64,000 nucleotides of DNA from NCBI GenBank assembly GCA_964437725.1, contig CAYTIB010000114.1, positions 2,695 to 66,694 on the forward strand, in the 5' to 3' direction. This document shows positions 9,067-61,571 of this stretch, piece by piece (the first letter of the stretch is position 1; each line of letters opens with the position of its first letter). The notes beneath the pieces are model-generated. The model had not been told where the DNA came from and ran no database searches. It saw nothing but the letters and a program-made list of their open reading frames with translations. A program made the translations under genes and the position numbers. Origin of the DNA: an uncultured bacterium. GTDB taxonomy: Bacteria; UBA8248; JACPRG01; G963555815.

Positions 9067-9075
9067 TAGTGTTCC

Positions 9076-9858: not shown

Positions 9859-9920
9859 GTCTCAGCTTGATTTGATAAGTTTAATCAAATGAGCGTGATT
9901 GTCCGTCATGCATACCCATG

Positions 9921-10940
9921 TTACAAAAAGAATATCCCTATCAGAATTAGGTACAACAAGTACGTGCCTACGAGAGCACTCCCTTGGGCTTTGCTGAGGT
10001 GGTTTCCCCGCAACCCGAATACCAGAAGTAATGAAACTATTAAAATAGAGAATGGGACATCAAGCACCCTTGTCTGAGTGACTATGGGTAATGGATTGGC
10101 CAGAGCGCTTACACCAATGACCCAAAAAATATCCAGTACGTTGGCGCCAAGAATATTTCCCAGACTTAAGTCGACGTTCCCCCGGATTATGGATGTGATT
10201 GCGAGTACAATCTCTGGAAGGGACGTACCAACGGCTACGATGGTCAAACCAATTATGAGCTCTGAGACTCCAGTGTACCGAGCTATTTGAGCTCCATTTT
10301 CCACCAAGAGGATGCATCCCACACTGACACAGCCGGCTCCAGCAATAAACCACAATATCGGAGAGAGCCAATCTTTTGGGGAAATCTTAGGAGGGGATTT
10401 GTCGAATTCCTTTTTTGTTGAGGACTGTTTCCAACTAAGGAAAAGAAATGCACATAGAGCGAGCGTAAAGATTATTCCAATAGTTTTTCCAATCTCCTGG
10501 CCAAGGGTTGCAATCGCCATTGCGATTGCTGCAGCAAGAGCACAAAGTCCTTGGAACTGAAAATTCTCTTTGGGAATGGGATATGACTTAATCATCGCGG
10601 CCAAACCCACAATTAATCCGATGTTGAAAAGGTAGGAACCCAACGCGTTTCCAACAGACATCAAGGTTTTTCCGGAGGAAGCCGCAATGAAGGAGGTTAA
10701 GAACTCTGGAAAGGTAGTAGCAAGACTTACAATGGTGGCACCTACTACCACTTTGGGGATATTTGCTGCTTTGGCAATAAAAATAGCTCCGGATTCAAAT
10801 TTTGTTGCCCCCCATACTACCAACATTGTCCCCAGGGAAAACAAAGTTAAGTTTGCAAAAAAACTTAGATCCAGAAAATAGGATTCCAACAGATAATCCT
10901 CAGGTTCGGTTCGTCCCTTTTTCGTGCGGGGACTCCTCAT
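9921..10940 (-). CDS. Ca2+/Na+ antiporter, CaCA (YrbG-like) family
   Basis: 339-aa polytopic membrane protein with the two alpha-repeat signatures (GTSLPE… GNILGAN and …GNALGS). Confidence 0.8.
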   Translation of the reverse strand: MRSPRTKKGRTEPEDYLLESYFLDLSFFANLTLFSLGTMLVVWGATKFESGAIFIAKAANIPKVVVGATIVSLATTFPEFLTSFIAASSGKTLMSVGNALGSYLFNIGLIVGLAAMIKSYPIPKENFQFQGLCALAAAIAMAIATLGQEIGKTIGIIFTLALCAFLFLSWKQSSTKKEFDKSPPKISPKDWLSPILWFIAGAGCVSVGCILLVENGAQIARYTGVSELIIGLTIVAVGTSLPEIVLAITSIIRGNVDLSLGNILGANVLDIFWVIGVSALANPLPIVTQTRVLDVPFSILIVSLLLVFGLRGNHLSKAQGSALVGTYLLYLILIGIFFL

Positions 10941-12062: not shown

Positions 12063-12242
12063 TTTGTCATTCTAAGCGACTAAAGGGTCTCTCGACGAGG
12101 GCTTCCAAGAATTTTAATCAATTCGCCCTTGTCTCCCATCTTAAATAGGATACTATGATGACGGAATATGATTTGTGCTTACAAGTCTCGTTCACAAAGC
12201 CTGATTAGCAAATGGTAACCTCTTTTGGGGAAGATGCGAGCT

Positions 12243-13307
12243 ATGAAGTTTTATGAACATCTGATTCGGCCTGCGTTGTTCACACTTTCTGCGGAGCGAG
12301 CACATGAAGTTGCAAAGCGAGTCCTTGGATTTGAAACTCCTTGGCGACAGCTTGCAGGTCGGTTTGAATTTTGTGATCGTCGACTGGAAACACGGGTGGG
12401 AGGTCTTCACCAGTCTAGTCCCATCGGTCTAACAGCAGGGTTAGATAAGGATGCTGAAGCCTTACCAGGTCTTTTCCACCTAGGCTTTGGTAGCCTCACT
12501 ATCGGAACTATTATGCCATCGGTCAGGAAGGGAAACCCCAAGCCTCGCATGGTGCGTCTTCCTGATCGGATGGCCGTTATCGATCATATGGGTCTGCCGT
12601 CAAAGGGCATAGAATATGGAGTGTCAAGGCTGAAATTGTTTCGTGATTGCCACCCAATAGGTCAGGGTCCTCCTGTTATCGTCAGTTTGGGTGGGCTTAC
12701 CATTGACGAACTTTTGACATCCCACCGATCTGTTGAGCCGCTATCGGATGCCATCGAATTTGATTTGACTTGTCCAAACGTTACTGAAAGAGGAGATTTC
12801 GAAACCGTTGACGGTATTGAACAATTTGTAAGGAGACTTGTTGATGTGCGGAGTAAGCCGTGCTTTTTTCGATTACCCCTTCGTCTTTCAGACGAGAATT
12901 GGCGCAAGTCTCTTGCCATCAGTGAGATTGTCATAAAGTATGGTATGGATGGAGTAACGCCAGCCGGTGGTGTTGCCATTGATGATGACCGTTTAGCTTT
13001 GAAAAAAGGTGCATTAGCGGGCAAGCCTCTCTTGGAGAATTCAATTCAGATTCTCCGGGATTTGAGGAGCGCATTTGGCGAGGAAATCGTGATACGTATT
13101 GCAGGGGGAGCGACGAGTGGTGAAGATGTTTTCAGAATGCTGGAAGCGGGTGCAGATGCCGTCAATGTTCTAACGGCTTTTATTTTTAGAGGTCCCGGTG
13201 CGGTGGCAGCCATGAACAGGGAGTTGATTGAAAAAATGGATTTAGAGGGAGTGGGATCCATCGGGGAAATCCGATCCCGGGCAACTTCTAAAGTACCCAG
13301 TTCTTGA
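12243..13307 (+). CDS. Dihydroorotate-dehydrogenase-like flavoenzyme, divergent paralog A
   Basis: DHOD-fold motifs are ERAHE N-terminal helix, GLTAGLDKD, GNPKPR, DLTCPNV and GGATSGEDV. The ORF opens at TTG 12225. ATG 12243 has GGGGAAG upstream, and ATG 12234 is also possible. Confidence 0.75.
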   Translation: MKFYEHLIRPALFTLSAERAHEVAKRVLGFETPWRQLAGRFEFCDRRLETRVGGLHQSSPIGLTAGLDKDAEALPGLFHLGFGSLTIGTIMPSVRKGNPKPRMVRLPDRMAVIDHMGLPSKGIEYGVSRLKLFRDCHPIGQGPPVIVSLGGLTIDELLTSHRSVEPLSDAIEFDLTCPNVTERGDFETVDGIEQFVRRLVDVRSKPCFFRLPLRLSDENWRKSLAISEIVIKYGMDGVTPAGGVAIDDDRLALKKGALAGKPLLENSIQILRDLRSAFGEEIVIRIAGGATSGEDVFRMLEAGADAVNVLTAFIFRGPGAVAAMNRELIEKMDLEGVGSIGEIRSRATSKVPSS

Positions 13308-13355
13308 CGCTAGTTTTTCTTGGTTTCCATAGTTTTAAGGCGAGAGAACTTTAGT

Positions 13356-14399
13356 ATGGGTTTTTACACTCGGACAGTTCGTCCTGTTCTTTTCGCACTA
13401 CCCGCTGAAAGTGCACATAACTTAGCCAAACGAGCTTTATCTTTCGAATTTCCTTGGCGTATTTTTGGGGAACAGCTGAAGGTTTTTAGCCCACGGTTGG
13501 AATGTGAGGTTGCAGGACTTTTCCAGCTTAGCCCGTTTGGTCTTACGGCAGGTTTCGATAAAGACGCCTTGGCCCTTCCAGGTCTTTCGCACCTCGGATT
13601 CGGAAGTGTTACTGTTGGGGCCATTTTGCCGAAGTATAGGGCGGGAAATCCGAAACCTCGTTTAGCTAGATGCCCAGCGGAAGCGGCGTTGGTCAACTGT
13701 ATGGGGCTCCCTTCTAAAGGTCTCGACTACGCTGTTAATAATCTTCAACGTTATCATGCAGTTCGTCCTGTTGATGGCCCGCCGATTATTGCGAATGTCG
13801 GAGGATTTTCCATCGATGAGATTCTGGCTACATTCAGAGCTACGGAACCATATGTGGACGCTGTTGAGTTGGATCTAACCTGTCCAAACGTGATGATGGA
13901 AGGAGAACTGTCAAAGCTTGAAGGTATCCGGTCCGCCATGGAGCAAGTAGTGGTGGAGAGGACCAAGCCGGTATTTACGAAGCTTCCATTACGAACGTCT
14001 GAAAAAGATTGGGGGAAAGCGATCGAAATGTCCATCGCTGCAGCCGAAGCAGGGTTGGATGGGATCACGGCTGCGGGGAATCTTCGTGTCCAGGACCAGC
14101 GGCTTTCAAAATCCGAAGCATCTTTGACTGGTCGACCGTGCTTCGAAAATACTTTGAAGGTCGTCCGCGAGTTGCGGGGGGCCATCGGTAGGCGTTTGGC
14201 AGTTCGAGTGTCCGGTGGGGTATCGTCCGGAGAGGATGTCTATCGTCTGCTGCAGGCTGGAGCAGATGCTGCAAATGCCTACACGTCATTTGTTTACCAT
14301 GGACCCTCAATTGCAGCCCGAATCAACCAGGAGTTACTTTTAAAGATGGATGAAGAAGGCGTGGGGTCTGTAAATGAGTTGAAAGAGTGGCGGTTTTGA
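13356..14399 (+). CDS. Dihydroorotate-dehydrogenase-like flavoenzyme, divergent paralog B
   Basis: Alignable end to end with paralog A (AESAHN, GLTAGFDKD, GNPKPR, DLTCPNV, GGVSSGEDV). ATG 13356 is preceded by AAGGCGAGAG. The ORF opens at 13320. Confidence 0.75.
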   Translation: MGFYTRTVRPVLFALPAESAHNLAKRALSFEFPWRIFGEQLKVFSPRLECEVAGLFQLSPFGLTAGFDKDALALPGLSHLGFGSVTVGAILPKYRAGNPKPRLARCPAEAALVNCMGLPSKGLDYAVNNLQRYHAVRPVDGPPIIANVGGFSIDEILATFRATEPYVDAVELDLTCPNVMMEGELSKLEGIRSAMEQVVVERTKPVFTKLPLRTSEKDWGKAIEMSIAAAEAGLDGITAAGNLRVQDQRLSKSEASLTGRPCFENTLKVVRELRGAIGRRLAVRVSGGVSSGEDVYRLLQAGADAANAYTSFVYHGPSIAARINQELLLKMDEEGVGSVNELKEWRF

Positions 14400-14525: not shown

Positions 14526-15260
14526 ATGAATAGAAATATCCTTCGAATTTCACTTCCAATCTTACGCAAGTTGTTTTCGCTAGTTTATTCCAGCTCTCAC
14601 CCGAAAGGATTAAAGAAAGAGGATGCGGAATTTTTGAAAAAGCTTGATCTCGAGGGACGTACTGTCTATGACGTTGGTGCCTACAAGGGTTACTATAGTC
14701 TGTTTTTTGCCCGGGCGGTTGGGTCTCAGGGTCGGGTTATATCATTTGAACCACACCCCTTGAATTTTCAAAAATTGACGAAACGGATCAAGAGAAACCT
14801 GCTTGAAAATGTTGAAGTGCGCCAGATTGCCATAGGAAAAGAAAGTGGGCGGAGGGTATTAGCGTTTCGGATGTCTGGAACAGGAACGGCGAGTCTTCAA
14901 GAAGGTTTAAAGGGAAATATTTCCCGAGAAGGTGGGAGCCAAACTATTAATGTTGACGTGGACTCGTTAGATCATTTGATATCCGTCCAAAAATTGCCAC
15001 AACCGGATTTCATGAAGGTCGATGTCGAGGGTCTCGAGATGGAAGTTCTTTCGGGGATGAAGGGCACGTTAAAGCAGTACAAGCCAGAGCTACTCATTGA
15101 AATTCACGGGGCAGAACGAGAGAGCAAATTGAAAAATGCAGGGAAAATTGTCGATTTTCTAATAGATCAGAGATATTCCCTTCGACATGTTGAATCCAAT
15201 TTGGAAATTACCGCCAATAATTTTGAAATTGCTAGGGAAGGACATTTGTATTGTTTCTAG
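14526..15260 (+). CDS. FkbM-family SAM-dependent methyltransferase
   Basis: 244 aa with the SAM motif VYDVGAYKGYYS and FkbM-like downstream blocks (FEP.P.N…, DF.K.DVEG.E..VL.G). Confidence 0.7.
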   Translation: MNRNILRISLPILRKLFSLVYSSSHPKGLKKEDAEFLKKLDLEGRTVYDVGAYKGYYSLFFARAVGSQGRVISFEPHPLNFQKLTKRIKRNLLENVEVRQIAIGKESGRRVLAFRMSGTGTASLQEGLKGNISREGGSQTINVDVDSLDHLISVQKLPQPDFMKVDVEGLEMEVLSGMKGTLKQYKPELLIEIHGAERESKLKNAGKIVDFLIDQRYSLRHVESNLEITANNFEIAREGHLYCF

Positions 15261-15383: not shown

Positions 15384-15875
15384 TCAATTTGGTGCGACAG
15401 ATGATGCGGCAATGTTCCAATCCTTCCACTCTTTGAATACTTTTTCTGCCTGCTCTTCGAGGACACCCCGAATGACCTGAATGGTTAGACCGCTCAATTC
15501 CACCACCCGCTCTATGGTGTAATCCTTTAAATCGTATCGTCCGCTAGAAAGCCGGCGAAGAACTTCTGGGCCGGCGCCAATGACAACCGTACTTACACCA
15601 GAATAAATTGCTGCTCCGGCACACATAGGGCAAGGATCACAGTTAGCGTACATTGTACAACCACGCATGTCGCCGGTGCCCAAAAATTGAGCGGCCTGGC
15701 GAATTGCATTCATCTCGGCGTGTGCTGTTGGGTCTTTTGTGGCTACTCCTGTACTTTTTCCCTTACCGATGACTTGATCATTTTTTACGATAATGCCGCC
15801 GTATGGTAAGAATCCATTTTGGACGCCGTCTTCAGCTTCCTGAATGGCCATGGCCATATATTTTGCATGGTCCAT
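15384..15875 (-). CDS. CDA-fold (cytidine/deoxycytidylate deaminase family) nucleobase deaminase, guanine-deaminase-like, copy 1 (most divergent)
   Basis: Zn motifs HAE and PCPMC are intact (…DPTAHAEMNAIR… TMYANCDPCPMCAGA…). ATG 15875 (MDHAKYMAMAI) is preceded by CGGAGAAA. The longer ORF to 15959 would overlap copy 2. Confidence 0.8.
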   Translation of the reverse strand: MDHAKYMAMAIQEAEDGVQNGFLPYGGIIVKNDQVIGKGKSTGVATKDPTAHAEMNAIRQAAQFLGTGDMRGCTMYANCDPCPMCAGAAIYSGVSTVVIGAGPEVLRRLSSGRYDLKDYTIERVVELSGLTIQVIRGVLEEQAEKVFKEWKDWNIAASSVAPN

Positions 15876-15903
15876 CAAGATTTTTCTCCGTATTTTGTAG
15901 TTT

Positions 15904-16407
15904 CTATTGACCGGACCGTAATACATTTGGAGAGACGATCGATAAATCACCAAATTCACGAAAAGCGACCTTAACCTCTTCTTCCAGTATTCCTGTCCGG
16001 ACCTCCATTTCGAAACCGGTTAACTTTAATAAATGGTCGATGTTGTACTTATTCAGATCGTAATACCCTCTGGACTCATTTAGTAACGTTTCCATACTGG
16101 CCCCGATGACGATGGCTTTAACCCCTGAGGCGACAGTTGCCCACGCGCACATAGGACAGGGGTGGCATGAAGTATAAAGTGTGCAATTGGTGAGTTTCGA
16201 GGTTTTAAGGTTTTTTGCAGCATTTCGAACTGCCTCGATCTCCGCGTGTGCAGTCGGATCCCCAGTCGAATTGACGACATTACGTCCTTGTCCCACTACA
16301 TTTCCGTCACGCACGACGATGGACCCAAATGGCCGATCACCAGATTGAACCGCAGCACGCATTTCCCCAATGGCCATAGCCATAAATTTTTCGTGGTCCG
16401 CTTCCAT
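15904..16407 (-). CDS. CDA-fold nucleobase deaminase, guanine-deaminase-like, copy 2
   Basis: MEADHEKFMAMAI… DPTAHAEIEAVR… TLYTSCHPCPMC. The sequence closely parallels the B. subtilis GuaD pattern (GPFGAVIV…DPTAHAE…LYTSCEPCPMC). Confidence 0.85.
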   Translation of the reverse strand: MEADHEKFMAMAIGEMRAAVQSGDRPFGSIVVRDGNVVGQGRNVVNSTGDPTAHAEIEAVRNAAKNLKTSKLTNCTLYTSCHPCPMCAWATVASGVKAIVIGASMETLLNESRGYYDLNKYNIDHLLKLTGFEMEVRTGILEEEVKVAFREFGDLSIVSPNVLRSGQ

Positions 16408-16456
16408 CCAAAATCTCCCGATTCGGACTCATTGTTTTTTCAAACGGAAATTCTGG

Positions 16457-16924
16457 TTAAGAAATCGACCAGTCGTATTCGGTGAGAGCCTGTTCAGCAT
16501 CGTCCTGAAGCACTCCCCGGGTGATTTCAAGGGATGCGTGCATCTGTTCGGCGAGGTTTTCTGCCGTATATGTTCTACCCGGCACATTTTGAACCTCCGC
16601 TAGTTTTGCGGATCGGGCCCCTATGAACAATCGCTCAATCTGAGCCATCATTATTGCTCCGGCACACATAGGACAGGGGTCGCAGGACGTATAAAGGGTA
16701 CAACCTGCCAAACTTGCAGTCTTCATGTTGACCGAAGCGTCACGAACTGCATTAACCTCCGCGTGTGTGGTTGGATCTCCAGAGGAGTTAACCACATTGA
16801 AGGCTCGTCCAACGATATTCCCATCGCGCACTACGACTGATCCAAAGGGTTGCTCACCATTTCGGAGCCCTTTACGAGCTTCTGCAATAGCCACAGCCAT
16901 AAACTTCTCATGTTCGGTGCTCAT
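16457..16924 (-). CDS. CDA-fold nucleobase deaminase, guanine-deaminase-like, copy 3
   Basis: MSTEHEKFMAVAI… DPTTHAEVNAVR… TLYTSCDPCPMC. Start ATG 16924 is chosen by alignment with copies 2 and 4 and the upstream GGGAAGGGAAGG. The ORF is open to 16939. Confidence 0.85.
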   Translation of the reverse strand: MSTEHEKFMAVAIAEARKGLRNGEQPFGSVVVRDGNIVGRAFNVVNSSGDPTTHAEVNAVRDASVNMKTASLAGCTLYTSCDPCPMCAGAIMMAQIERLFIGARSAKLAEVQNVPGRTYTAENLAEQMHASLEITRGVLQDDAEQALTEYDWSIS

Positions 16925-16954
16925 TCCTTCCCTTCCCATGTTTGAGGTAAAGCA

Positions 16955-17443
16955 TCAGGTTTGCCGAATTTTCGAATCTAGTATCCATTGGTATTTTGCT
17001 AGTACGAGTTCTGCTTCCTCCTGCAGGACACCCCAGATAACTTGGAGGTCCATTTTGTACATTTCAGCAAGCCGGTCGGGATTGTATGTTCGCTCGCCTG
17101 TCTGGCCTCTCAGTTTAACTAGTGTGCTGCCCCGGCCGGCAATAACTAATGTTCCTATCCTGGCGTTAAGGATAGCTCCGCAACACATCGGACAAGGTTC
17201 ACAAGAAGTATATAGAGTGCTGCCTTCGAGGTTCGGAGTTTTCAATCGTACGGAAGTCTCCCTAACTACTTTGGTTTCCGCGTGTGCAGTGGGGTCGAAC
17301 GAAGAATTGACGGTGTTGTAGGCACTTCCGATCACCTCGTCGTCCCGAACGATAGCACTTCCGAATGGGGCCTCCCCACCACTCAGACCCTTGCGGGATT
17401 CCTCGATGGCCATGGCCATAAACTTCTCATGGTTTTCACTCAT
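16955..17443 (-). CDS. CDA-fold nucleobase deaminase, guanine-deaminase-like, copy 4
   Basis: MSENHEKFMAMAI… DPTAHAETKVVR… TLYTSCEPCPMC. ATG 17443-17441 overlaps the TGA stop (17442-17440) of the upstream LLM gene as an ATGA coupling. Confidence 0.85.
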   Translation of the reverse strand: MSENHEKFMAMAIEESRKGLSGGEAPFGSAIVRDDEVIGSAYNTVNSSFDPTAHAETKVVRETSVRLKTPNLEGSTLYTSCEPCPMCCGAILNARIGTLVIAGRGSTLVKLRGQTGERTYNPDRLAEMYKMDLQVIWGVLQEEAELVLAKYQWILDSKIRQT

Positions 17444-18453
17444 GTTGGAGCTCCTTTTTCGCGATTCCATTGTTCTGCCACAAGTCTAAGAGCATGTTTT
17501 CGGCTCTCCGGGGACCCGCGAAGAGCCAGGATGGGAATTTCAAGTCCCGTCTTGAGGTATTCTGATATACGATCGGTTGCCATCTTCGGCGTACCTGTTA
17601 CCGTAAAGGCATGAACGATTTTCTCTGGCAAAAGACGGCGCATGGTTATCCAGTCTTCCTTGACAAGTGCATTATTAACCGCATCGATATCAAGATTCAC
17701 TCCAGTTAGTTCAAGATTTGTCCGTAATCCAGGATTTCGGAGCAAATAGCCGAGCCCCTTTTGCGCTTCAAGGAGAGCGTCTTCGTAATTTTCTGAAATA
17801 GAGGTCATTATTAGACTGGCATATGTGAAGTTCCCCCCATCATTCCCGCTTCTCTTTCGGCCAATCTCGGTTTGTTCCATGGCCCATTCGATGTACTGGG
17901 GTGATACGGATGCGGAGAAAACGACCCCGTCGGATACTTCTCCGGCAAGTTGGCACATCTTCTCGCCGATGGCCGCAAGATAAATAGGAATTGAGGGTCC
18001 TGGAATTTCGAAGTCAATGTGGGCTCCCTTGAGGCTCAAGGTCTCACCGGTGAACTCTACTCGGTTCCTTTTGGCATCCCAAATTTGTCGTATAGAGCAA
18101 ATCATATCCCGCATATGGGCTAGTGGTTTCTTTAAAGGGATCCCCATCTCACGTATCACCTGTGCATTGGCTGTTCCAGCACAGAGAGCTGTGCGGCCTG
18201 GAGCGTACTCCGCTAATGTTGCTACCCCCATCGCCCAAAAAAGGGGATGAGCAACGTAGGGACTAAGTGCGGTAGGTATGACGAGTGTGTTTTTTGTTTC
18301 TGCTAGAAAGGCGATCGATGAAGAAACGGCATCTCGATATCCTAGGTGTTGATCAGCCCAGATGGAATGAAAACCCGCCTCGTCGGCAATTCGGCACATA
18401 TCAACCATGTCGGAGAGCGAAATGCGTCCATCCAAATCGATACCAAGCTTCAT
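17440..18453 (-). CDS. LLM-class (luciferase-like) flavin/F420-dependent oxidoreductase, Mer-like
   Basis: 337 aa from ATG 18453, which has GGAGG 6 nt upstream. It has the typical LLM N-terminus (MKLGIDLDG…AGFHSIWADQHL…) and a TIM-barrel pattern resembling methylene-H4MPT reductase-type F420 enzymes. Confidence 0.75.
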   Translation of the reverse strand: MKLGIDLDGRISLSDMVDMCRIADEAGFHSIWADQHLGYRDAVSSSIAFLAETKNTLVIPTALSPYVAHPLFWAMGVATLAEYAPGRTALCAGTANAQVIREMGIPLKKPLAHMRDMICSIRQIWDAKRNRVEFTGETLSLKGAHIDFEIPGPSIPIYLAAIGEKMCQLAGEVSDGVVFSASVSPQYIEWAMEQTEIGRKRSGNDGGNFTYASLIMTSISENYEDALLEAQKGLGYLLRNPGLRTNLELTGVNLDIDAVNNALVKEDWITMRRLLPEKIVHAFTVTGTPKMATDRISEYLKTGLEIPILALRGSPESRKHALRLVAEQWNREKGAPT

Positions 18454-18600
18454 TGAAACCTCCAACCAAAAACAAAACTTGTCACCACTTAGTCCGGATA
18501 CCCTCAGACGGTATATGTGCAGCAAAATCCGATGAAAGCGCACCACAGATGACTCGAAAAGAGGAAATCCCTCTCTTCTGAATTCGGGTGGGCATTCCTT

Positions 18601-20907
18601 TTAGCCCCCGTTAGAGGTGATTCCCTTTGCCCGGATGGCTTGGAGCAGGTCCTGGGGTCGGATTGGAACCTTATGACAACGGATGCCTACTGCGTCGTGA
18701 ATTGCATTTGCAATTGCCGCAGCAACAGGATTTACAGGCCCTTCGGAGCAGCCTTTGGCCCCGAGCGGGCCGAGGGGGTCATCCGATTCAATGAAATCGT
18801 GGCGGATAGGTGGCATAGCTTCAGCCTTGGGGACGGCATAGTCGGCCAGGTTTCCGTTTACCGGTTGACCGTTCTCAAACACCATTTCCTCAAAATACGC
18901 CCATCCTAATCCTTGAGAAATGGCACCCTCCGTTTGGCTTTCAGCTCCGAGTGCGGATATGACTCTCCCTACATCGTCCACCGTGACGAATTCCAGAATA
19001 TCCACTTGACCGGTTTCTACATCCACTTCAACCTCGGCAATCTGCGCCACGAATTCATAGCCGGGGGCCACGTTACCATCCAGAAGCGGTGGCCGGATGG
19101 TTTCATTTTCAGCCTCGTAATGGCCGACGGCCATGACTGGGCCCTCATTATTTTGTTCCTTCTTGACAGCTTCTCCGATACTCATTCCCCGGTCAGGGGA
19201 TCCCTTAACGAAAATCCGGCCTTGTTCAAAAACAAGATCATCCGAGTCCACCTCGTACTCTTTGGACACGACGGCTGCAAGTTTCTTTTTCAGCTCCACT
19301 GCTGCCCGATGAACGGCGTTACCACCAATCATAGTGATTCGGCTTGCAAAGGACCCAAGAGTGTAAGGGGCGACATCGGTGTCTGGCTCGCACATGTCAA
19401 TATCTTTGACATCCACGCCGAGCTCTTCCGCAGCGAACATACTAAGAACTGTGGGTGCGCCTTGTCCGTTATCCCCTTCCCCAATGAGCAAACCGATTCG
19501 CCCGTCGTCGTGGGCGTGGAGAATCGCTGTGGAGCCTTCCCACCCTGCAATCACACGGTTTCCGCTTACGTGATTGGCGCATGCTAATCCAATACCTCGT
19601 CGGCGGGTTCCGGAGTCCGACTGACGGGTTTCCTCGCGTTTGCGTTTCCAATCAGTCATTTCTACAGCACGCTCGACGCATTCGGGAAGAGCATTTGTAA
19701 TTGCGTTCCACTTGTGAATCGAGAGCTCACCAGGGTTGAGCACATTTTGAAGACGTAGATCCGGAGGGTCGATATTCAACTGTTCAGCAAGCATGTCCAT
19801 CATGATTTCACCGGGAACCGTTGTTTGCGGTGTCCCAAATCCCCTAAATGCGCCCTTCGGAGGATTGTTGGTGTACATTAATTTTGCCTTCACGCCGCAG
19901 GCTTTCCATCGATAAAGTGATGGCCAACGGGTTACCATCGTATTGACGATACCCGGAGAGGCCCCAGCGTGCGCTCCACATTCTGCGACAATGTTCAGGG
20001 AATGCGCAGTGAGGGTTCCATTTTTCATGGCCCCGATTTTGAGTTGGACCTTTGCGGGCACCCGCATTCGTGTTGCCCCCCGAAAGGATTCAGTTCGGAG
20101 GTTTTCAAGCTTAACTGGACGACCAGACTTCAGGGCCAGTAGTCCGTTGATAAGAGCATTGGGATCATCAATTGATTTTCCACCGAAGGAGCCACCAACA
20201 TAAGGCTGAACCAGTCGAACCTTGGAAGTTTCCAGCCCCAACCCCATTGCGATCCTGTCTCTGCCAAGAAAAACTTTTAGGCAGGGGACATACATGACCA
20301 GCTTGTTTCCATCGGTTGGATCGGCAACGGTACAGTTTGGTTCGGTAAAGGCGTGATACTGTGTTTTTACTATAAATTCTTCTTCTAGAACGATATCGGA
20401 AGCTGCAAAGGTGGTTTCCAGGTTCTCACCTTTCTGAAAATCTAATTCGTGACAGATGTTATTTGGGGCCTCGTCGTGAATGAGAAGGGCGTTATCCGCC
20501 ATCGCGTCTTCGGGAGTGAGGTAGGCAGGAAGCGTTTCATACTCTACTTTTATGCGATCAATGGCTTCCTCGGCGATCTCCCGAGACACTGCGGCAACCG
20601 CCGCAACCTCGTGACCGATGAACCATACTTTGTTTATAGCGAGGGCGGTTTGATCTTTCCGTAATGTTCCAAATCCTGCACCCGGAGGGATGTCCTGACC
20701 AGTCACAATTGTCTTGACACCGGGAACCTTCAAGGCTTCAGAGGTGTCAATTTTCAGAATTCGCGCGTGAGAATGCACACTTCGCAATACCTTGCCATGC
20801 AGCAGACCCGGAAAATTCATATCTGTAGCAAACTTGGCTTGCCCCGATACCTTCACCGGGGACCCAACCATCGGGGTACGCGAACCTATCACTCTAAATG
20901 AACTCAT
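18601..20907 (-). CDS. Xanthine dehydrogenase/aldehyde oxidase family molybdopterin-binding large subunit
   Basis: 768 aa with the N-terminal a/b hammerhead (…RTPMVGSPVKVSGQAKFATDM…HGKVLRS.H.HA.I…), GGSFGGK, and the C-terminal GAKGCSEGP block containing the catalytic Glu position. No fused or adjacent 2Fe-2S or FAD subunit is present. Confidence 0.85.
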   Translation of the reverse strand: MSSFRVIGSRTPMVGSPVKVSGQAKFATDMNFPGLLHGKVLRSVHSHARILKIDTSEALKVPGVKTIVTGQDIPPGAGFGTLRKDQTALAINKVWFIGHEVAAVAAVSREIAEEAIDRIKVEYETLPAYLTPEDAMADNALLIHDEAPNNICHELDFQKGENLETTFAASDIVLEEEFIVKTQYHAFTEPNCTVADPTDGNKLVMYVPCLKVFLGRDRIAMGLGLETSKVRLVQPYVGGSFGGKSIDDPNALINGLLALKSGRPVKLENLRTESFRGATRMRVPAKVQLKIGAMKNGTLTAHSLNIVAECGAHAGASPGIVNTMVTRWPSLYRWKACGVKAKLMYTNNPPKGAFRGFGTPQTTVPGEIMMDMLAEQLNIDPPDLRLQNVLNPGELSIHKWNAITNALPECVERAVEMTDWKRKREETRQSDSGTRRRGIGLACANHVSGNRVIAGWEGSTAILHAHDDGRIGLLIGEGDNGQGAPTVLSMFAAEELGVDVKDIDMCEPDTDVAPYTLGSFASRITMIGGNAVHRAAVELKKKLAAVVSKEYEVDSDDLVFEQGRIFVKGSPDRGMSIGEAVKKEQNNEGPVMAVGHYEAENETIRPPLLDGNVAPGYEFVAQIAEVEVDVETGQVDILEFVTVDDVGRVISALGAESQTEGAISQGLGWAYFEEMVFENGQPVNGNLADYAVPKAEAMPPIRHDFIESDDPLGPLGAKGCSEGPVNPVAAAIANAIHDAVGIRCHKVPIRPQDLLQAIRAKGITSNGG

Positions 20908-21050
20908 GATTAACTCCTGTTAAACAAGGGGCCTCTTGGCGATTCCCGAATTCAAATGGACACCGCCCCCTATACATTGAAGGTTTGGGTACTACCCCAG
21001 CGTTTCCTCTGGTTTATTCAACAGACCTTATCATTGAAACAGGCGGTTGC

Positions 21051-21929
21051 TCAACTCCTTAGAAGCATGATCAGGACGACGCCGAGGACGATAGATGCGG
21101 TCCCGGCGTATGTCCTTCTCGTTATATTTTCTAAGTCTCCCAAAAAGAACGCCGCCATGGAGATAGATAAAAGCGGGGTAGCGCCGAGAATTGCCATGAC
21201 TCGCGAGACCTCTCCCAAAGAGATGGCAGAAAACAGAAAAAACAAGGTGACGGCAAGAGTGATTCCTGCGAGAAGGAAAAACCCCAATGCTCTGGTAGAA
21301 CAGACCAGCCGCATATTTTTTGGGAACATTTTATAGGTCATTCCAAGGACTATTAGGGCAGAAAATGTGGAAATCAAAATGGCTATGTGAGGGAGCGGGA
21401 TGACCGATAATCCGACCTTTCGGATAACAGCGGCTAGACCCCAGAAGAATCCTGCGGCCAGGGGAAGGATCGCTTCTCTCAACTTTAGTGGTGTTTCCCC
21501 TTTTGGGTGCATAATCACCCAAATTCCTCCAACGATCAGAACGGTGCCGACATACAAAGTCCAGTGGGGTCGTTCGCCCAAGAGCAGAACGCTGAGTATA
21601 ACTGAGAAGAGAGGATTTGAGCCCATCCCTATGGGGGCTGCTCGCCCAACTCCCAAGCGACTTAGAGCGATGTAGTACATCGTCATGGACAAGGCAGGGG
21701 AACTGATACCTCCCAGCAAAAACCAGAGCACACCCTTTTGTGACAAATCCGTCCATTGGACCCCAAGGGAGGCGCATACTCCAGTATAGGCAATTAAAAC
21801 GGTTAGGTTAATGACCACAGCGGCGACGTAGGGAGAGCCGGTTTGTAGCCCTTGACGGGTCAGAGTGCTCATAAACGACATGGCAAAGACAGCGATGAGA
21901 GCCAGGAAATCAGCGGGTATGGCTTGCAA
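21051..21929 (-). CDS. EamA/DMT-superfamily transporter, paralog 1
   Basis: 292 aa with about 10 predicted TM segments and duplicated EamA-type halves. It aligns over its full length with the next gene. Confidence 0.75.
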   Translation of the reverse strand: MQAIPADFLALIAVFAMSFMSTLTRQGLQTGSPYVAAVVINLTVLIAYTGVCASLGVQWTDLSQKGVLWFLLGGISSPALSMTMYYIALSRLGVGRAAPIGMGSNPLFSVILSVLLLGERPHWTLYVGTVLIVGGIWVIMHPKGETPLKLREAILPLAAGFFWGLAAVIRKVGLSVIPLPHIAILISTFSALIVLGMTYKMFPKNMRLVCSTRALGFFLLAGITLAVTLFFLFSAISLGEVSRVMAILGATPLLSISMAAFFLGDLENITRRTYAGTASIVLGVVLIMLLRS

Positions 21930-21980
21930 TTTGTATTTCCATTTAAAGGGAAAAGTATTCTAGTTGAAAAGAAAAGTGTG

Positions 21981-22868
21981 CTAGGTCCTGAGCAATGTAA
22001 TGATGATAATGCCTACTACAATGGCTACTGTACCTCCATAGGTTCTGGCGGTTATCCTTTCTAAATTTCCGAGGAATATGGCAGCCATGGCGATGGTTAA
22101 AAGCGGAATAATTCCCATTATAGACATCACCTTGGAAACCTGCCCCAAAGCGAGAGCGGAGTAAAGAAAATAAAGGGATGTGGCAAAGGCAATTCCCGCG
22201 CAAAGGAAGAACTTCGCGGCCTTCCGGGAGCACACAAGTCGTTTTCCTTTTGGGACAAACCAATATGTCAGGATTAAAAATGTTAAGGCTGTTGCCGCGG
22301 AGATGGCAATACCAACGTGAGGTAGTGAGATATAAGACAAGCCGATCTTCCGAAAAACAGAAGCCAATCCCCAGAAAAAGCCAGCGCTCAAAGGAATCAG
22401 GGATTCCTTCCACGTTAACGGTGGCAGACCTTTCGGTCTAGTAATCACCCAAATCCCACTGATGACTAAGATTGTTCCCAAGTATAAAGACCAATTTGGT
22501 CTCTCGCCCAAAAGTATGATCGCCAAAGTTACCGAGGCTAGAGGATTTGCACCCATAGCAATGGGAGCGGCTTGTGCGACGCCAAAACGACTTAGTCCAT
22601 AGTAGTAAATAGTCATCGAAAGGGCAGGGGAACTGATACCGGCTATCAGAAACCACATGACTCCGGTTAGCGGAAGTTTTGTCCATTGGACTCCTAGAAC
22701 AGTACAAACTACAAAATAAATAATTAGAACCGTTGTGTTCATTATGATTGCCGCCATGTAGGGGGATCCTGTTTGGAGACCCTGACGGTTCAAGACACTA
22801 AGGAAAGACATTGCAAAGGCAGCAAGAAGCGCAATGAAGGGTACTGGGATGGTTTGAATGAAGGACAA
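21981..22868 (-). CDS. EamA/DMT-superfamily transporter, paralog 2
   Basis: 295 aa. It shares blocks with paralog 1 (…RQGLQTGSPY.AA…, GISSPALSMT.YY..LSR.GV..AAPI.MG.NPL.SV…LLGERP.W.LY.GT.L…). Confidence 0.75.
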   Translation of the reverse strand: MSFIQTIPVPFIALLAAFAMSFLSVLNRQGLQTGSPYMAAIIMNTTVLIIYFVVCTVLGVQWTKLPLTGVMWFLIAGISSPALSMTIYYYGLSRFGVAQAAPIAMGANPLASVTLAIILLGERPNWSLYLGTILVISGIWVITRPKGLPPLTWKESLIPLSAGFFWGLASVFRKIGLSYISLPHVGIAISAATALTFLILTYWFVPKGKRLVCSRKAAKFFLCAGIAFATSLYFLYSALALGQVSKVMSIMGIIPLLTIAMAAIFLGNLERITARTYGGTVAIVVGIIIITLLRT

Positions 22869-22927
22869 GAGAAACCTTCCAGTCAGACGTAAGTGAAGTG
22901 GCGTTGCTTCTTTCGAGATGGCTATTA

Positions 22928-22944
22928 GCCGATTGCGAATCGGC
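22928..22944. promoter_or_regulatory. Perfect 7-3-7 palindrome upstream of the transporter/deaminase operon (candidate operator or hairpin)
   Basis: GCCGATT-GCG-AATCGGC lies about 60 nt upstream of the first EamA start (22868) in the 205-bp intergenic region. Confidence 0.25.
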
Positions 22945-23072
22945 AGTTAAGCTTCCAGGGGGTAGAAAGTCAATCCTGGTGTAAAGAAAGTATTATCGTA
23001 CGAAGGTCATTTTTTATTTGTACGTTGTCACTCAAACGGGCTAGTCAAAGCAAGTTTGAAACTTCGAAGTTT

Positions 23073-27903: not shown

Positions 27904-28767
27904 TTATTCCCTGTCGTTTTCATTGGAGTTCTTAGTTAAATTGGGATACTTGCGTTTTTCTGCAGGCCGATGCTTCCGTAGCGTCTCGATGAATTCAACC
28001 CCGTTTCCAATGATGGCCTGCCACAATTTTTCGCCCTTTTCCACATTGGCGACAGTTGGATCGCCGATGTGTGCTGGGGGAGTATAAAAGCTCTGATCGT
28101 CTGCAGTTATCGTTATTGGAATTTTGTCGCCGGATGCAAAATTGTCGTGGGAAAAAAACCGACTTTCAAAGTAAAGGTTTCCCCGGTGTTCGAAGGCCTT
28201 ATCCATTTGGACCATCTCGGGACGTTTGAATAGCATATGGGACGTTTCAAACTCACCGCCATGCTGCCCCGCGCCCGGATTCTCACAGACCTCTTTATGG
28301 GTTGAGGAAGCAATGATTAAAGGATCGTACAAAGCAAAAAAGGTTTCTGGATTTTCTTGTTTAATGGTTTTGCTTGCAATCCCAATTGCAGCGACGTTGG
28401 CTAGCCGGTGGCCATTGAAGGTGATAATGTTTTTAAATCCATGTTTTATGAGGCTGCGATAAATATCCTTAAGTAGATCGACTACTGTTTCTGGCCTAAG
28501 CGAAATCCCAGGTTTGTGCATGTGGTGCTGGGCGTCTCCAAACCAGCTTGGTGGTGTGCACAAGACATTCGCGGCCTTTGCTATCCCTTCCGAATAATCA
28601 ATAGCTTCGAACCCATCGACCCCAATGGGAAGATGTGGACCGTGTGGTTCGGTACTTCCAATAGGTACGATTACGATGTCTTCCTGTTCCAGGTATTCGG
28701 CAATCTCTTCCCAAGTAAGATCCTGCATCCAAATTGATTTGAGTTTCTTTTTCCGCGCGGTAGCCAT
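27904..28767 (-). CDS. Creatininase-family amidohydrolase
   Basis: Hallmark motif VPIGSTEPHGPHLP (family pattern GS.EQHGPHLP) plus a later GGEFETS block. ATG 28767 is preceded by AAAGGAG. The track start (TTG 28791) is less likely. Confidence 0.8.
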   Translation of the reverse strand: MATARKKKLKSIWMQDLTWEEIAEYLEQEDIVIVPIGSTEPHGPHLPIGVDGFEAIDYSEGIAKAANVLCTPPSWFGDAQHHMHKPGISLRPETVVDLLKDIYRSLIKHGFKNIITFNGHRLANVAAIGIASKTIKQENPETFFALYDPLIIASSTHKEVCENPGAGQHGGEFETSHMLFKRPEMVQMDKAFEHRGNLYFESRFFSHDNFASGDKIPITITADDQSFYTPPAHIGDPTVANVEKGEKLWQAIIGNGVEFIETLRKHRPAEKRKYPNLTKNSNENDRE

Positions 28768-29103
28768 GCGTTCTTTTCTCCTTTGCGACAAACGGTGTTT
28801 TGTCGTTGCGTTAGTAGAATATAGGCTAACTTTGTTCCTCAGAGATTATGCTGTAGTCTCGGTTGCTCGGATAGGTTCATTGCGAAATCGAGTCGTATGG
28901 GAATGAACCGGAGCGACAGCTTTTCTGCTTTTGTCGAATTTTCTCCGGGTGGGTATGGCAACTCACGGTTTGTACTTGAAGGTGTGTCGACATCGGTACC
29001 GCCACCTTCGCGGTTCCTGGGGGTTCAACGAGAATGTTCTCCCAGGTAGGTGATTTTCCCACCCTCTCACGGAGCAGAGATACCTCTTGCTGGTGAGAAG
29101 TGC

Positions 29104-61546: not shown

Positions 61547-61571
61547 CCTGCCGGATTAGAGAGAGGTTTTC

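What the first reader, a model, noticed from the sequence alone, without database searches (positions are those of the whole stretch)
15384..22944. Uncharacterised 9-gene operon: 2 EamA transporters, Mo-hydroxylase, LLM/F420 reductase, 4 deaminases
**Seen in the sequence**
- Nine co-directional minus-strand genes with short gaps run from 22868 to 15384.
- The order is two paralogous EamA/DMT permeases, a xanthine-dehydrogenase-family molybdopterin subunit, an LLM-class oxidoreductase whose TGA overlaps the ATG of the first deaminase (ATGA at 17440-17443), then four CDA-fold deaminases.
- A perfect 17-bp palindrome lies in the upstream intergenic region (22928-22944).
- The FkbM gene downstream is convergent.

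**Established knowledge**
- Mo-hydroxylases hydroxylate N-heterocycles such as purines, nicotinate, pterins and quinolines.
- LLM/F420 enzymes reduce or oxygenate heterocycles.
- CDA-fold enzymes hydrolytically deaminate amino-heterocycles.

**Inference**
- The operon looks like a self-contained import, hydroxylation, reduction and deamination route for an aminated N-heterocycle, possibly a purine, pterin or aminopyrimidine-like dissolved organic nitrogen compound.
- I cannot match the composition to a described pathway.
Basis: inference. Interest (0 to 1): 0.65.

Follow-up and report, generated by a model that had tools for sequence, protein, structure and literature searches.

The report
Uncharacterised deaminase-rich heterocycle gene cluster
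A real but eight-gene (not nine-gene) cluster, conserved only in a narrow group of uncultured marine Nitrospinota-like bacteria, combines transporters, a lone molybdenum-enzyme subunit, a reductase and four specialised deaminases. It probably strips nitrogen from purine- or pterin-like ring compounds, and it is built from two separable modules rather than one self-contained operon.

Summary
**Observation: mostly confirmed.**
- All family assignments hold: two EamA permeases, an XDH-family Mo subunit, a Mer-like LLM oxidoreductase and four CDA-fold deaminases.
- The ATGA overlap between the LLM and the first deaminase is real, and the FkbM gene is convergent.
- There are eight genes, not nine.
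- The "perfect 17-bp palindrome" is a 7+3+7 inverted repeat and is not conserved in relatives.

**Interpretation: partly supported.**
- The gene order recurs in about ten related metagenomic loci with 64-93% protein identity, all Nitrospinota/Tectomicrobia-labelled or unnamed MAGs.
- The cluster splits into two modules.
  - Module A is EamA(1-2) plus Mo.
  - Module B is the LLM coupled to 3-4 deaminases.
- In relatives the Mo-LLM spacer holds toxin-antitoxin, TIR, AbiE or transposase insertions, or an extra Amidohydro_2 gene.
- In one MAG the two modules lie on different contigs.
- The Mo subunit has no [2Fe-2S] or FAD partner in the window, and no [2Fe-2S] partner in the 417 kb of window plus related loci, so the route is not self-contained.
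- The four deaminases form conserved orthologous classes with different active-site residues, which suggests different substrates.
- No component passes any curated functional-family cutoff, and I found no described pathway that matches.

**Most likely function:** uptake and nitrogen release from amino-substituted N-heterocycles of purine or pteridine type. The substrate is unknown.

**Scores:** moderate interest; a new variant of a known kind.

The parts
21981..22868 (-). EamA/DMT permease 1 (295 aa, TTG start)
   Evidence: Pfam PF00892, 2 repeats, E 2.7e-26. The TTG start context CTTG.CCTTC is invariant in 4 loci. Orthologs are 57-75% identical in L001-L006, L010 and L025.
21051..21929 (-). 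EamA/DMT permease 2 (292 aa), a 62% identical paralog of permease 1
   Evidence: Pfam PF00892, E 8.3e-29. Paralogy shown. Absent from L005, so relatives carry one or two copies.
18601..20907 (-). Xanthine-dehydrogenase-family molybdopterin-binding catalytic subunit (768 aa). It is a local orphan with no FeS or FAD subunit gene nearby.
   Evidence: Pfam PF01315 + PF02738 + PF20256. Best PDB match is 4-hydroxybenzoyl-CoA reductase alpha, 1rm6_A, E 5.8e-125, collinear over residues 6-761. All NCBIfam equivalogs are below cutoff. No 2x[2Fe-2S] motif in the window or 25 loci.
17440..18453 (-). Mer-like luciferase-like (LLM) oxidoreductase, 337 aa from ATG 18453 (the longest ORF reaches 18546)
   Evidence: Pfam PF00296, E 6e-46. 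All 10 PDB matches are F420-dependent LLM enzymes; the best is Mer 1z69, E 4.8e-33. Mer equivalog models score below cutoff. Apart from two short fragments (<=118 aa), a single representative reaches >=50% identity among 1.84 billion representatives. The GGAGG ribosome-binding site and the ortholog N-terminus MKLGIDLDGR support the start.
16955..17443 (-). Deaminase D1 (162 aa), CDA fold. Its start overlaps the LLM stop (ATGA).
   Evidence: Pfam PF00383, E 3.4e-25. HAE and PCPMC motifs present. Overlap shown. The LLM-D1 overlap or a gap of about 15-75 nt is kept in relatives.
16457..16924 (-). Deaminase D2 (155 aa), 53% identical to D1
   Evidence: Pfam PF00383, E 5.9e-27. Best PDB matches over core residues 6-106 are plant guanosine deaminase 7dbf (4.6e-24), Bdellovibrio dCyd deaminase, B. 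subtilis GuaD and TadA.
15904..16407 (-). Deaminase D3 (167 aa), the class with SCHPCPMC and GRGRN.VNS
   Evidence: Pfam. The orthologous class is conserved in L002, L005, L006, L010, L011, L012, L016 and L017. A single-copy D3-like homolog occurs in a Rokubacteria contig.
15384..15875 (-). Deaminase D4 (163 aa from ATG 15875). This class has PYGG in place of PFGS, and Ser in place of the ring-binding Asn.
   Evidence: Pfam. The class-specific substitutions are conserved in every ortholog. The AlphaFold model has pLDDT 93.9. Foldseek best matches are guanosine deaminase and TadA at TM 0.77-0.80.
22965..22973 (-). TTGACTTTC, an invariant -35-like motif about 100 nt upstream of EamA1; candidate promoter element
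   Evidence: Invariant in the alignment of 4 loci. Found once, at the same relative position, in the window and in L001-L006 and L010, and nowhere else in the loci. Its function is inferred, not shown.
22928..22944 (.).
   Evidence: Arms GCCGATT / AATCGGC with a 3-nt spacer. Not conserved in L005, L002 or L006. The folding energy of the leader is not unusual, z = -0.48. Probably not a functional part.

Best explanation
This is a lineage-restricted, two-module gene cluster of uncultured marine Nitrospinota/Tectomicrobia-like bacteria. It most likely takes up amino-substituted N-heterocyclic bases (purine- or pteridine-type) and releases their nitrogen.

**Module A**
- It encodes one or two DMT/EamA permeases and the catalytic molybdopterin subunit of a xanthine-dehydrogenase-family hydroxylase.
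- That subunit must borrow its [2Fe-2S] and FAD electron-transfer subunits from genes elsewhere in the genome.

**Module B**
- It encodes a Mer-like LLM oxidoreductase, probably an F420- or flavin-dependent C=N reductase.
- The LLM is translationally coupled to three or four diverged guanine/guanosine-deaminase-like zinc deaminases.
- The differing active-site residues suggest that each deaminase removes a different exocyclic amino group, or acts on a different member of a substrate family.

**Shown**
- Gene content and family membership.
- Conservation of gene order, and the modular architecture.
- Orthologous deaminase classes with intact catalytic motifs.

**Inferred**
- The substrate class and the direction of transport.
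- The cofactor of the LLM.
- That the two modules serve one pathway.
For: **Family assignments**
- Pfam assigns all eight proteins to the stated families.

**Conserved order**
- The order EamA-(EamA)-Mo-[variable]-LLM-deaminases recurs in the window and in L002, L005, L006 and L010.
- L016, L018 and L019 are cut off upstream but also show Mo followed by the LLM.
- This holds even though GC content ranges from 0.47 to 0.65.
- In all, 8 of the 9 loci in which the region upstream of the LLM is visible have the Mo gene there.

**LLM-deaminase coupling**
- Deaminases directly follow the LLM in all 10 loci in which the downstream region is visible.
- The LLM and D1 overlap by ATGA.

**Deaminases**
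- All four keep HAE and PCxxC.
- They form conserved orthologous classes with class-specific pocket changes.
  - D1-D3 keep the Asn 11 residues before the HAE histidine.
  - D4 always has Ser at that position, plus PYGG.
  - The second deaminase in L002, L006 and L016 has Ala there.
- Their nearest solved relatives are guanosine and guanine deaminases and TadA.
- All four are acidic, pI 5.0-5.8.

**LLM**
- Every PDB match is an F420-dependent LLM, and the closest is Mer, which reduces a pterin-bound iminium.
- More distant LLM relatives sit next to ketimine-reductase-like or opine-dehydrogenase-like genes and NMT1-type ABC transporters.

**Mo subunit**
- It keeps the catalytic Glu context (AKGCSEG, against AKEASEG in HcrA).
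- It has GAFRGFG where HcrA has GAMRGHG.
- A MocA cytidylyltransferase (190 bits, cutoff 186) lies next to a paralogous Mo subunit recovered from two of the same samples as the related loci. The lineage therefore probably makes the MCD cofactor.

**Accessory genes**
- The closest relatives insert an Amidohydro_2 gene (decarboxylase/hydrolase family) between Mo and LLM on the same strand.
Against: - No [2Fe-2S] subunit for the Mo protein was found anywhere in the window or the related loci, and no FAD subunit appears in the annotations available.
- The neighbouring sixA and FrsA-like genes are conserved in the same loci. The adjacency of the two modules could therefore be inherited microsynteny rather than functional coupling.
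- The Mo-LLM spacer is an insertion hot spot in relatives.
- In MAG GCA_046758845.1 the Mo and LLM modules are on separate contigs.
- Strain variants L001 and L003 show no LLM-deaminase module within 6-10 kb downstream of Mo.
- Single-copy homologs of the D1 and D3 classes occur elsewhere without an LLM of this family or a Mo gene.
- EamA proteins are often exporters, so the transport direction is unknown.
- No cofactor or substrate was tested.
Confidence: 0.45

Rival explanations
1. The eight genes are not one pathway. They are two or three unrelated units: a transporter pair with an orphan CoxL-like gene, and an LLM-deaminase operon. They sit side by side only because this lineage has inherited the local gene order, as it has for the housekeeping neighbours.
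For: - sixA passes its equivalog cutoff, and the FrsA-like gene is 83-89% identical across loci. Both are conserved beside the cluster in the same loci.
- Mobile and defence genes have repeatedly inserted between Mo and LLM.
- The modules are unlinked in GCA_046758845.1.
- L001 and L003 keep EamA-EamA-Mo but have transposases instead of the LLM-deaminase module downstream.
- Genomes of related lineages carry many CoxL-family genes of unknown substrate (PMC8941161).
Against: - The outer flanks differ between loci while the block from EamA to the deaminases stays together.
  - Upstream: ProA, NAD_binding_2 or epimerase.
  - Downstream: FkbM/DHODH-like genes, or a 651-aa protein with UbiD.
- The adjacency survives a shift from 47% to 65% GC.
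- Both modules are present in the one MAG where they are unlinked.
- The chemistries are mutually compatible.
Confidence: 0.3
2. The LLM-deaminase module cleans up or salvages damaged or non-canonical bases, rather than serving as a nutritional catabolic route. It would resemble the mycobacterial CDA-fold enzyme Msd, which removes mutagenic bases. The permeases would export the products.
For: - CDA-fold base deaminases with such roles exist (PMC11963756, listed; Msd structures 5xko/8wlv are among the PDB matches).
- Many EamA proteins are exporters (general knowledge).
- There is no regulator or ring-opening enzyme in the window's cluster.
Against: - Msd-type structures are much weaker matches (E about 1e-10) than guanosine or guanine deaminases.
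- Four specialised paralogs plus a Mo hydroxylase is more machinery than housekeeping would be expected to need.
- The surrounding genome is rich in genes for nitrogen-rich small molecules: creatininase, hydantoinase B, M20 peptidases and amidohydrolases.
Confidence: 0.1
3. The deaminase array belongs to an anti-phage defence island, acting by nucleotide- or nucleic-acid-targeting deamination.
For: - In relatives, TIR_2, PIN/PSK toxin-antitoxin and AbiEii genes lie immediately upstream of the LLM.
- There are weak matches of D2-D4 to the zinc motif of the PADLOC dCTP deaminase model.
Against: - The PADLOC matches cover only about 45 residues around the zinc site (E 1e-9 to 1e-6), and D1 has none.
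- The window and L018 lack these defence genes at the junction. L005 and L010 carry an Amidohydro_2 gene there instead.
- The defence genes vary between strains, while the cluster is fixed.
- The deaminases are small, acidic, stand-alone enzymes of the GuaD/GSDA type.
Confidence: 0.03

Closest known systems
Bacterial purine-catabolic clusters (for example the Bacillus subtilis puc/guaD system and E. coli xdhABC with ygf genes)
   Same: - They combine a base transporter, a xanthine-dehydrogenase-family Mo hydroxylase and a guanine deaminase.
- The B. subtilis GuaD is CDA-fold, and it is among the best PDB matches of D2.
- XdhA and PucD models are the 2nd to 4th best NCBIfam hits of the Mo subunit.
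   Different: - The Mo subunit scores far below the XdhA/PucD cutoffs (519 against 780; 451 against 784).
- There are no FeS or FAD subunits, and no uricase, allantoinase or other downstream genes.
- There are four deaminases instead of one, plus a Mer-like LLM that the purine pathway does not use.
- The transporters are DMT rather than NCS2 family.
4-Hydroxybenzoyl-CoA reductase alpha subunit (HcrA, PDB 1rm6)
   Same: It is the best structural-database and NCBIfam match, collinear over the whole length.
   Different: - The score of 561.6 is well below the 994.55 cutoff.
- The active-site loop reads GAFRGFG rather than GAMRGHG.
- There are no HcrB/HcrC genes and no aromatic-CoA pathway genes nearby.
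F420-dependent methylenetetrahydromethanopterin reductase (Mer, PDB 1z69, 8qpl)
   Same: It is the closest solved relative of the LLM, aligned over about 310 residues. Both are LLM TIM-barrel proteins. Mer reduces a pterin-linked iminium, a chemistry that fits N-heterocycles.
   Different: - Scores are 141-162 bits against cutoffs of 349 and 276.
- The host is a bacterium, not a methanogen.
- The cofactor is unknown.
- The genomic partners are deaminases.
CDA-fold guanine/guanosine deaminases (B. subtilis GuaD 1wkq, Arabidopsis GSDA 7dbf, Nitrosomonas NE0047 2g84) and TadA
   Same: - They share the fold, the HAE/PCxxC zinc site and the PFG motif, at about 30-45% core identity.
- The ring-binding Asn is kept in D1-D3.
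   Different: - The sequence match stops at about residue 106, and the C-terminal roughly 50 residues differ in sequence from any solved relative.
- Foldseek TM is only 0.77-0.80.
- TadA model scores are 77-87 against a cutoff of 150.
- D4 replaces the Asn with Ser.
- They occur as an array of 3-4 diverged paralogs.

Membership tests
Xanthine dehydrogenase / CO dehydrogenase family, Mo-binding large subunit | a/b-hammerhead domain plus the two molybdopterin-cofactor-binding domains, over the full length | tested here: met
   PF01315, PF02738 and PF20256 all score far above their gathering thresholds. The protein is collinear with 1rm6_A over residues 6-761.
Xanthine dehydrogenase family holoenzyme | A 2x[2Fe-2S] small subunit, usually with an FAD subunit, encoded with the Mo subunit | tested here: not met
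   No C-x4-C-x2-C...C-x2-C-x(25-40)-C-x-C motif in any frame of the window or of 25 related loci (417 kb); the positive control was detected. No such Pfam domain in the window ORFs of at least 150 aa. The partners may be encoded elsewhere in the genome.
4-Hydroxybenzoyl-CoA reductase alpha (TIGR03194) | Score at or above the curated equivalog cutoff | tested here: not met
   561.6 bits against a cutoff of 994.55.
Xanthine dehydrogenase XdhA / PucD (NF043082, NF007426, TIGR03196) | Score at or above the curated equivalog cutoff | tested here: not met
   519.5 against 780; 497.5 against 916; 451 against 783.65.
Luciferase-like (LLM) oxidoreductase superfamily | PF00296 TIM-barrel domain over the full length | tested here: met
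   E 6e-46, covering profile positions 20-312 of 314.
F420-dependent methylene-H4MPT reductase Mer (TIGR03555 / NF002619) | Score at or above the curated cutoff | tested here: not met
   141.2 against 348.7; 161.8 against 276.
F420-dependent LLM enzymes | Binds coenzyme F420, and the organism synthesises F420 | not testable with these tools
   All PDB and NCBIfam top hits are F420 enzymes.
CDA-superfamily zinc deaminase | H(C)AE and PCxxC zinc and catalytic motifs on the CDA fold | tested here: met
   Both motifs are invariant in D1-D4 and all orthologs. PF00383 scores above cutoff. The AlphaFold model of D4 has pLDDT 93.9 and matches GSDA/TadA.
tRNA adenosine(34) deaminase TadA (NF008113) | Score at or above the curated cutoff | tested here: not met
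   76.8-86.6 bits against a cutoff of 150. The proteins are acidic.
CDA-fold guanine/guanosine deaminase | Substrate-binding residues, including the ring-binding Asn and the C-terminal determinants | tested here: inconclusive
   The Asn at -11 from the HAE histidine is kept in D1-D3 but is Ser in D4 and Ala in some second-position paralogs. The C-terminal third does not align in sequence to GuaD or GSDA.
EamA/DMT transporter | Two EamA repeats (10 transmembrane segments) | tested here: met
   Two PF00892 stretches in each protein.
Single operon (one transcription unit of all eight genes) | Co-transcription without internal promoters or terminators | tested here: inconclusive
   - All genes are on one strand and the gaps are at most 147 nt.
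- No consensus terminator or promoter falls in an intergenic gap. The spacer folds are not unusual, z = -1.2 and -1.7.
- In L002, L006 and L016, opposite-strand genes lie between Mo and LLM, so that junction is not obligatorily co-transcribed.
- Transcript data are needed.
Known anti-phage defence systems (PADLOC) | Match to a defence-system protein model | tested here: not met
   Only short zinc-motif matches to the dCTP deaminase model and a weak generic oxidoreductase hit.

The most novel reading that the evidence does not exclude
The cluster encodes an undescribed pathway by which deep-sea heterotrophic Nitrospinota-like bacteria mineralise pteridines or poly-aminated purine/pteridine bases from dissolved organic nitrogen.
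- A DMT permease imports the substrate.
- A Mo hydroxylase, using electron-transfer subunits encoded elsewhere, oxidises the ring.
- A Mer-like F420/flavin enzyme reduces a ring C=N bond.
- Four specialised GuaD-like deaminases each remove a different exocyclic amine.
- In sister genomes an Amidohydro_2 decarboxylase handles carboxylated forms such as pterin-6-carboxylate.
Probability: 0.2. Interest if true: 0.65.

Novelty: new variant of a known kind. Interest (0 to 1): 0.4.

Why it matters
- If the reading is right, this would be a first handle on how an abundant but uncultured marine lineage harvests nitrogen from heterocyclic bases.
- It would add a new functional subfamily of small CDA-fold base deaminases with a distinct C-terminal region. 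Such enzymes are also raw material for base-editor engineering.
- It would assign a substrate class to one of the many CoxL-family Mo subunits whose substrates are unknown (PMC8941161).
- It is also a clear example of a Mo catalytic subunit encoded away from its electron-transfer partners. That matters for anyone inferring pathway completeness from gene neighbourhoods.

Tried and rejected
- **FeS/FAD partner subunits.** A motif scan of six-frame translations (with a positive control) and Pfam annotation of the window ORFs of at least 150 aa found none.
- **The palindrome as an operator.** It is imperfect and not conserved.
- **Defence-system hypothesis.** The PADLOC scan was negative.
- **A wider neighbourhood census.** The genome and metagenome scans with the LLM returned only 4 + 3 loci. 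An exhaustive HMMER search showed that the LLM subfamily collapses to one full-length 50%-identity representative. A large EFI-GNT-style statistic is therefore not possible.
- **The Rokubacteria D3-like locus.** It also has an LLM nearby, but that LLM is unrelated to the window's (BLASTP E 0.21), so I did not count it as synteny.
- **Single-copy D1-like homologs** (L014, L015) show no shared context.
- **The radical-SAM gene near Mo in L016 and L025.** It is not MoaA or CofG/H by NCBIfam.
- **Literature.** Five full-text searches found no description of this gene combination.
- **Rfam and tRNA scans.** Nothing was found in the cluster.
- **RNA folding of the intergenic spacers.** It gave no significant structure. 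One AU-rich 9-bp hairpin at 18556-18578 after the Mo gene lacks a U-tail.

Full report
**1. Observation**

The minus strand between 22868 and 15384 carries eight consecutive ORFs, not nine.

| Gene | Coordinates (minus strand) | Family |
|---|---|---|
| EamA1 | 22868-21981 | EamA/DMT permease |
| EamA2 | 21929-21051 | EamA/DMT permease, 62% identical to EamA1 |
| Mo | 20907-18601 | Ald_Xan_dh_C + MoCoBD_1 + MoCoBD_2 |
| LLM | 18453-17440 | Bac_luciferase |
| D1 | 17443-16955 | dCMP_cyt_deam_1 |
| D2 | 16924-16457 | dCMP_cyt_deam_1 |
| D3 | 16407-15904 | dCMP_cyt_deam_1 |
| D4 | 15875-15384 | dCMP_cyt_deam_1 |

- The starts follow ribosome-binding-site context and ortholog N-termini.
- The D1 ATG overlaps the LLM TGA (ATGA) exactly as reported.
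- The gaps are about 51 nt (EamA1-EamA2), 143 nt (EamA2-Mo), 147 nt (Mo-LLM) and about 30-50 nt between the deaminases.
- FkbM (14526-15260, + strand) is convergent.
- The "perfect 17-bp palindrome" is a 7+3+7 inverted repeat. It is absent from the homologous leaders of three relatives.
- The invariant element in those leaders is TTGACTTTC at 22973-22965. It resembles a -35 box.
- Consensus scans place no promoter or terminator in any intergenic gap. The spacers do not fold unusually well.

**2. Organism and relatives**

- Close homologs of the Mo and LLM proteins come only from metagenome-assembled genomes. Where these are named, they are Nitrospinota or Candidatus Tectomicrobia, and they come mostly from marine assemblies.
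- The window has 47-48% GC, while all related loci have 58-65% GC. The proteins are nevertheless 64-93% identical, so the relatives are well diverged at the DNA level.

**3. Synteny**

I collected loci through the Mo, LLM and deaminase proteins and re-annotated them with tblastn.

| Locus | Arrangement |
|---|---|
| Window | EamA-EamA-Mo-LLM-D1-D2-D3-D4 |
| L010 | Same, plus an Amidohydro_2 gene between Mo and LLM and an extra gene without Pfam match after D4 |
| L005 | As L010, but EamA2 is missing |
| L002, L006 | EamA-EamA-Mo, then 2-6 kb of insertions, then LLM and four deaminases |
| L016 | Cut off upstream: Mo C-terminal end, then 7.5 kb of insertions, then LLM and four deaminases |
| L018, L019 | Mo followed by LLM on short contigs; L019 has TIR_2 in between |
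| L012, L017 | Cut off upstream; LLM with three deaminases visible (L017 ends shortly after the third) |

- The insertions in L002, L006 and L016 include PIN/PSK toxin-antitoxin genes, AbiEii, TIR_2, transposases and a radical-SAM gene. Some of these lie on the opposite strand.
- In all, 8 of the 9 loci in which the region upstream of the LLM is visible have Mo there.
- Deaminases follow the LLM in all 10 loci in which the downstream region is visible.
- There are two kinds of exception.
  - In MAG GCA_046758845.1 the EamA-Mo genes sit on one contig, followed by DUF4282, DUF1326, PpoB2 and a radical-SAM gene (L025). The LLM and a D3-like deaminase sit on another contig, preceded by an ADP-ribosylglycohydrolase-like gene and a 230-aa ORF (L011).
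  - Strain variants L001 and L003 carry the same Mo protein as L002, but have transposases and no LLM-deaminase module within 6-10 kb downstream.
- The cluster is therefore real and conserved, but it consists of two separable modules joined at an insertion hot spot.
- The neighbouring sixA gene passes its equivalog cutoff, and the FrsA-like gene is conserved in the same loci. Part of the adjacency may thus be inherited microsynteny. The outer flanks do differ between loci.

**4. Mo subunit**

- It is a full-length member of the xanthine dehydrogenase family.
- It is closest to 4-hydroxybenzoyl-CoA reductase alpha (1rm6_A, E 5.8e-125). The next solved relative has E 2e-77.
- It scores far below the curated cutoffs for HcrA, XdhA, PucD, CoxL and the other equivalogs.
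- The alignment keeps the catalytic glutamate context. It shows GAFRGFG where HcrA has GAMRGHG. From memory, this loop resembles that of xanthine dehydrogenases; I did not test that here.
- No gene for the obligatory 2x[2Fe-2S] subunit occurs in the window or in any of the 25 fetched loci, 417 kb in all, with the positive control detected.
- Pfam annotation of the window's ORFs of at least 150 aa found no FAD or FeS subunit.
- A second orphan Mo subunit (45% identical) occurs in two of the same samples as the related loci. It sits next to a bona fide MocA cytidylyltransferase and a CinA/MoCF gene, again without partner subunits.
- Related sponge-associated lineages are reported to carry many CoxL-family genes of unknown substrate (PMC8941161).
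- The cluster is therefore not self-contained. The Mo subunit must rely on partners encoded elsewhere.

**5. LLM**

- All ten PDB matches are F420-dependent LLM enzymes, and Mer is the best. The top NCBIfam hits are Mer and F420 families, all below cutoff.
- In an exhaustive search of 1.84 billion representatives, the only full-length match at or above 50% identity is one 55% representative. Two short fragments (<=118 aa) also exceed 50%, and every other match is at most 42% identical. This is a lineage-specific subfamily.
- A 59% paralog in the same MAG lies beside an SbnB/ornithine-cyclodeaminase-like gene and an NMT1 ABC transporter.
- A 35% homolog lies beside an octopine-dehydrogenase-like gene and an NMT1 ABC transporter.
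- Taken with Mer chemistry, this points to reduction of C=N bonds in nitrogenous small molecules. That is an inference. The cofactor is untested.

**6. Deaminases**

- D1-D4 are 39-53% identical to each other. All keep HAE and PCPMC.
- The best solved relatives are Arabidopsis guanosine deaminase, a Bdellovibrio deoxycytidine deaminase, B. subtilis guanine deaminase and TadA. Their scores are nearly equal, and the sequence match covers only the core residues 6-106.
- A confident AlphaFold model of D4 (pLDDT 93.9) matches the same group at TM 0.77-0.80.
- TadA model scores are half the cutoff. All four proteins are acidic.
- Across loci the paralogs fall into conserved orthologous classes with class-specific pocket residues.
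  - D1-D3 keep the Asn 11 residues before the HAE histidine. From established structures of this clade, that is the ring-binding Asn.
  - D4 always has Ser at that position, with PYGG instead of PFGS.
  - The second deaminase of L002, L006 and L016 has Ala there.
  - D3 has SCHPCPMC.
- This pattern is what subfunctionalisation toward different substrates or successive deamination steps would produce.
- Copy number varies: four in most loci, three in L012, and at least one in L011.
- Single-copy D1-like and D3-like homologs occur elsewhere in unrelated contexts.

**7. Interpretation**

- The best-supported reading is a lineage-restricted system for amino-substituted N-heterocyclic bases. It combines transport, Mo-dependent hydroxylation, C=N reduction and multiple hydrolytic deaminations.
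- A pteridine substrate would link all three enzyme types.
  - Mer acts on a pterin.
  - GuaD-type enzymes act on the 2-amino-4-oxopyrimidine ring that pterins share with guanine.
  - Xanthine dehydrogenases oxidise pterins.
- The Amidohydro_2 gene in the closest relatives belongs to a family rich in heteroaromatic decarboxylases, which would also fit. This specific guess is inference only.
- The main rival is that the two modules are functionally independent neighbours.
- A defence role is unlikely.
- No paper in the searchable library describes this combination.

**8. Verdict**

The gene count and the palindrome were wrong, and everything else was right.
The cluster is conserved and uncharacterised, and the chemistry is plausible. 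It is modular, it is not self-contained, and it is not necessarily one operon.
- It is a new variant of a known kind of system, an N-heterocycle utilisation cluster, and is of moderate interest.

Noticed in passing
L002:12320-18034, L006:7759-10000, L016:718-8269, L019:483-1027 (equivalent to window 18454-18600): In relatives the Mo-LLM spacer is an insertion hot spot. It carries a 161-aa TIR_2 protein immediately upstream of the LLM, PIN/PSK toxin-antitoxin pairs, AbiEii, transposases and a radical-SAM gene. The window has only 147 nt there.
   Followed up: partly
L005:4635-5519 and 9067-9948; L010:8653-9570 and 13352-14182: The closest relatives (Mo 86-87% identical) carry two extra same-strand genes that the window lacks: an Amidohydro_2 family protein between Mo and LLM, and a 276-293 aa protein without Pfam or NCBIfam match after D4. 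tblastn finds neither in the window.
   Followed up: partly
window 12225-13307 and 13320-14399 (+): Two tandem class-2 dihydroorotate-dehydrogenase-like paralogs both score below the curated PyrD cutoffs (173 and 151 bits against 200). They lie next to the cluster in the window, L005 and L010, but not in L006 or L016. They might act on another dihydro-heterocycle.
   Followed up: partly
L022-L024:8001-10304: A second orphan xanthine-dehydrogenase-family Mo subunit (45% identical) occurs in two of the same samples as the related loci. It lies beside a MocA molybdenum-cofactor cytidylyltransferase (passes its cutoff) and a CinA/MoCF gene, again without FeS or FAD subunits.
   Followed up: partly
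whole window compared with loci L001-L025: The window has 47-48% GC while every related locus has 58-65% GC. The encoded proteins are nevertheless 64-93% identical, so the window's genome has undergone a strong compositional shift.
   Followed up: no
L007:2442-4493, L009:1454-3566: More distant homologs of the LLM (59% and 35% identical) sit next to SbnB/ornithine-cyclodeaminase-like or octopine-dehydrogenase-like genes and NMT1-type ABC transporters. This hints that the wider LLM family acts on imine or opine-like nitrogen compounds.
   Followed up: partly
window 50013-51062, 53252-55177, 55202-56629 (-): Selenocysteine machinery is present: a SelD-like AIRS-domain protein, SelB and SelA. An SNF-family transporter lies at 56790-58304.
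   Followed up: no
window 30-1658, 27904-28791, 1829-3157, 37962-39164, 58608-59846: The window holds many genes for nitrogen-rich small molecules: hydantoinase B, creatininase, two M20 peptidases and an amidohydrolase. This is consistent with a heterotroph that scavenges organic nitrogen.
   Followed up: no
window 60001-62000: A local GC spike (0.594 against about 0.47) coincides with a DEAD-box helicase ORF at 60302-61546.
   Followed up: no
L004 compared with L005: Two contigs encode the identical Mo protein P0002. In L004 the Amidohydro_2, LLM, deaminase, DHODH and RsmI genes are broken into fragments, while in L005 they are intact. This looks like frameshift errors in the L004 assembly rather than pseudogenes.
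   Followed up: no
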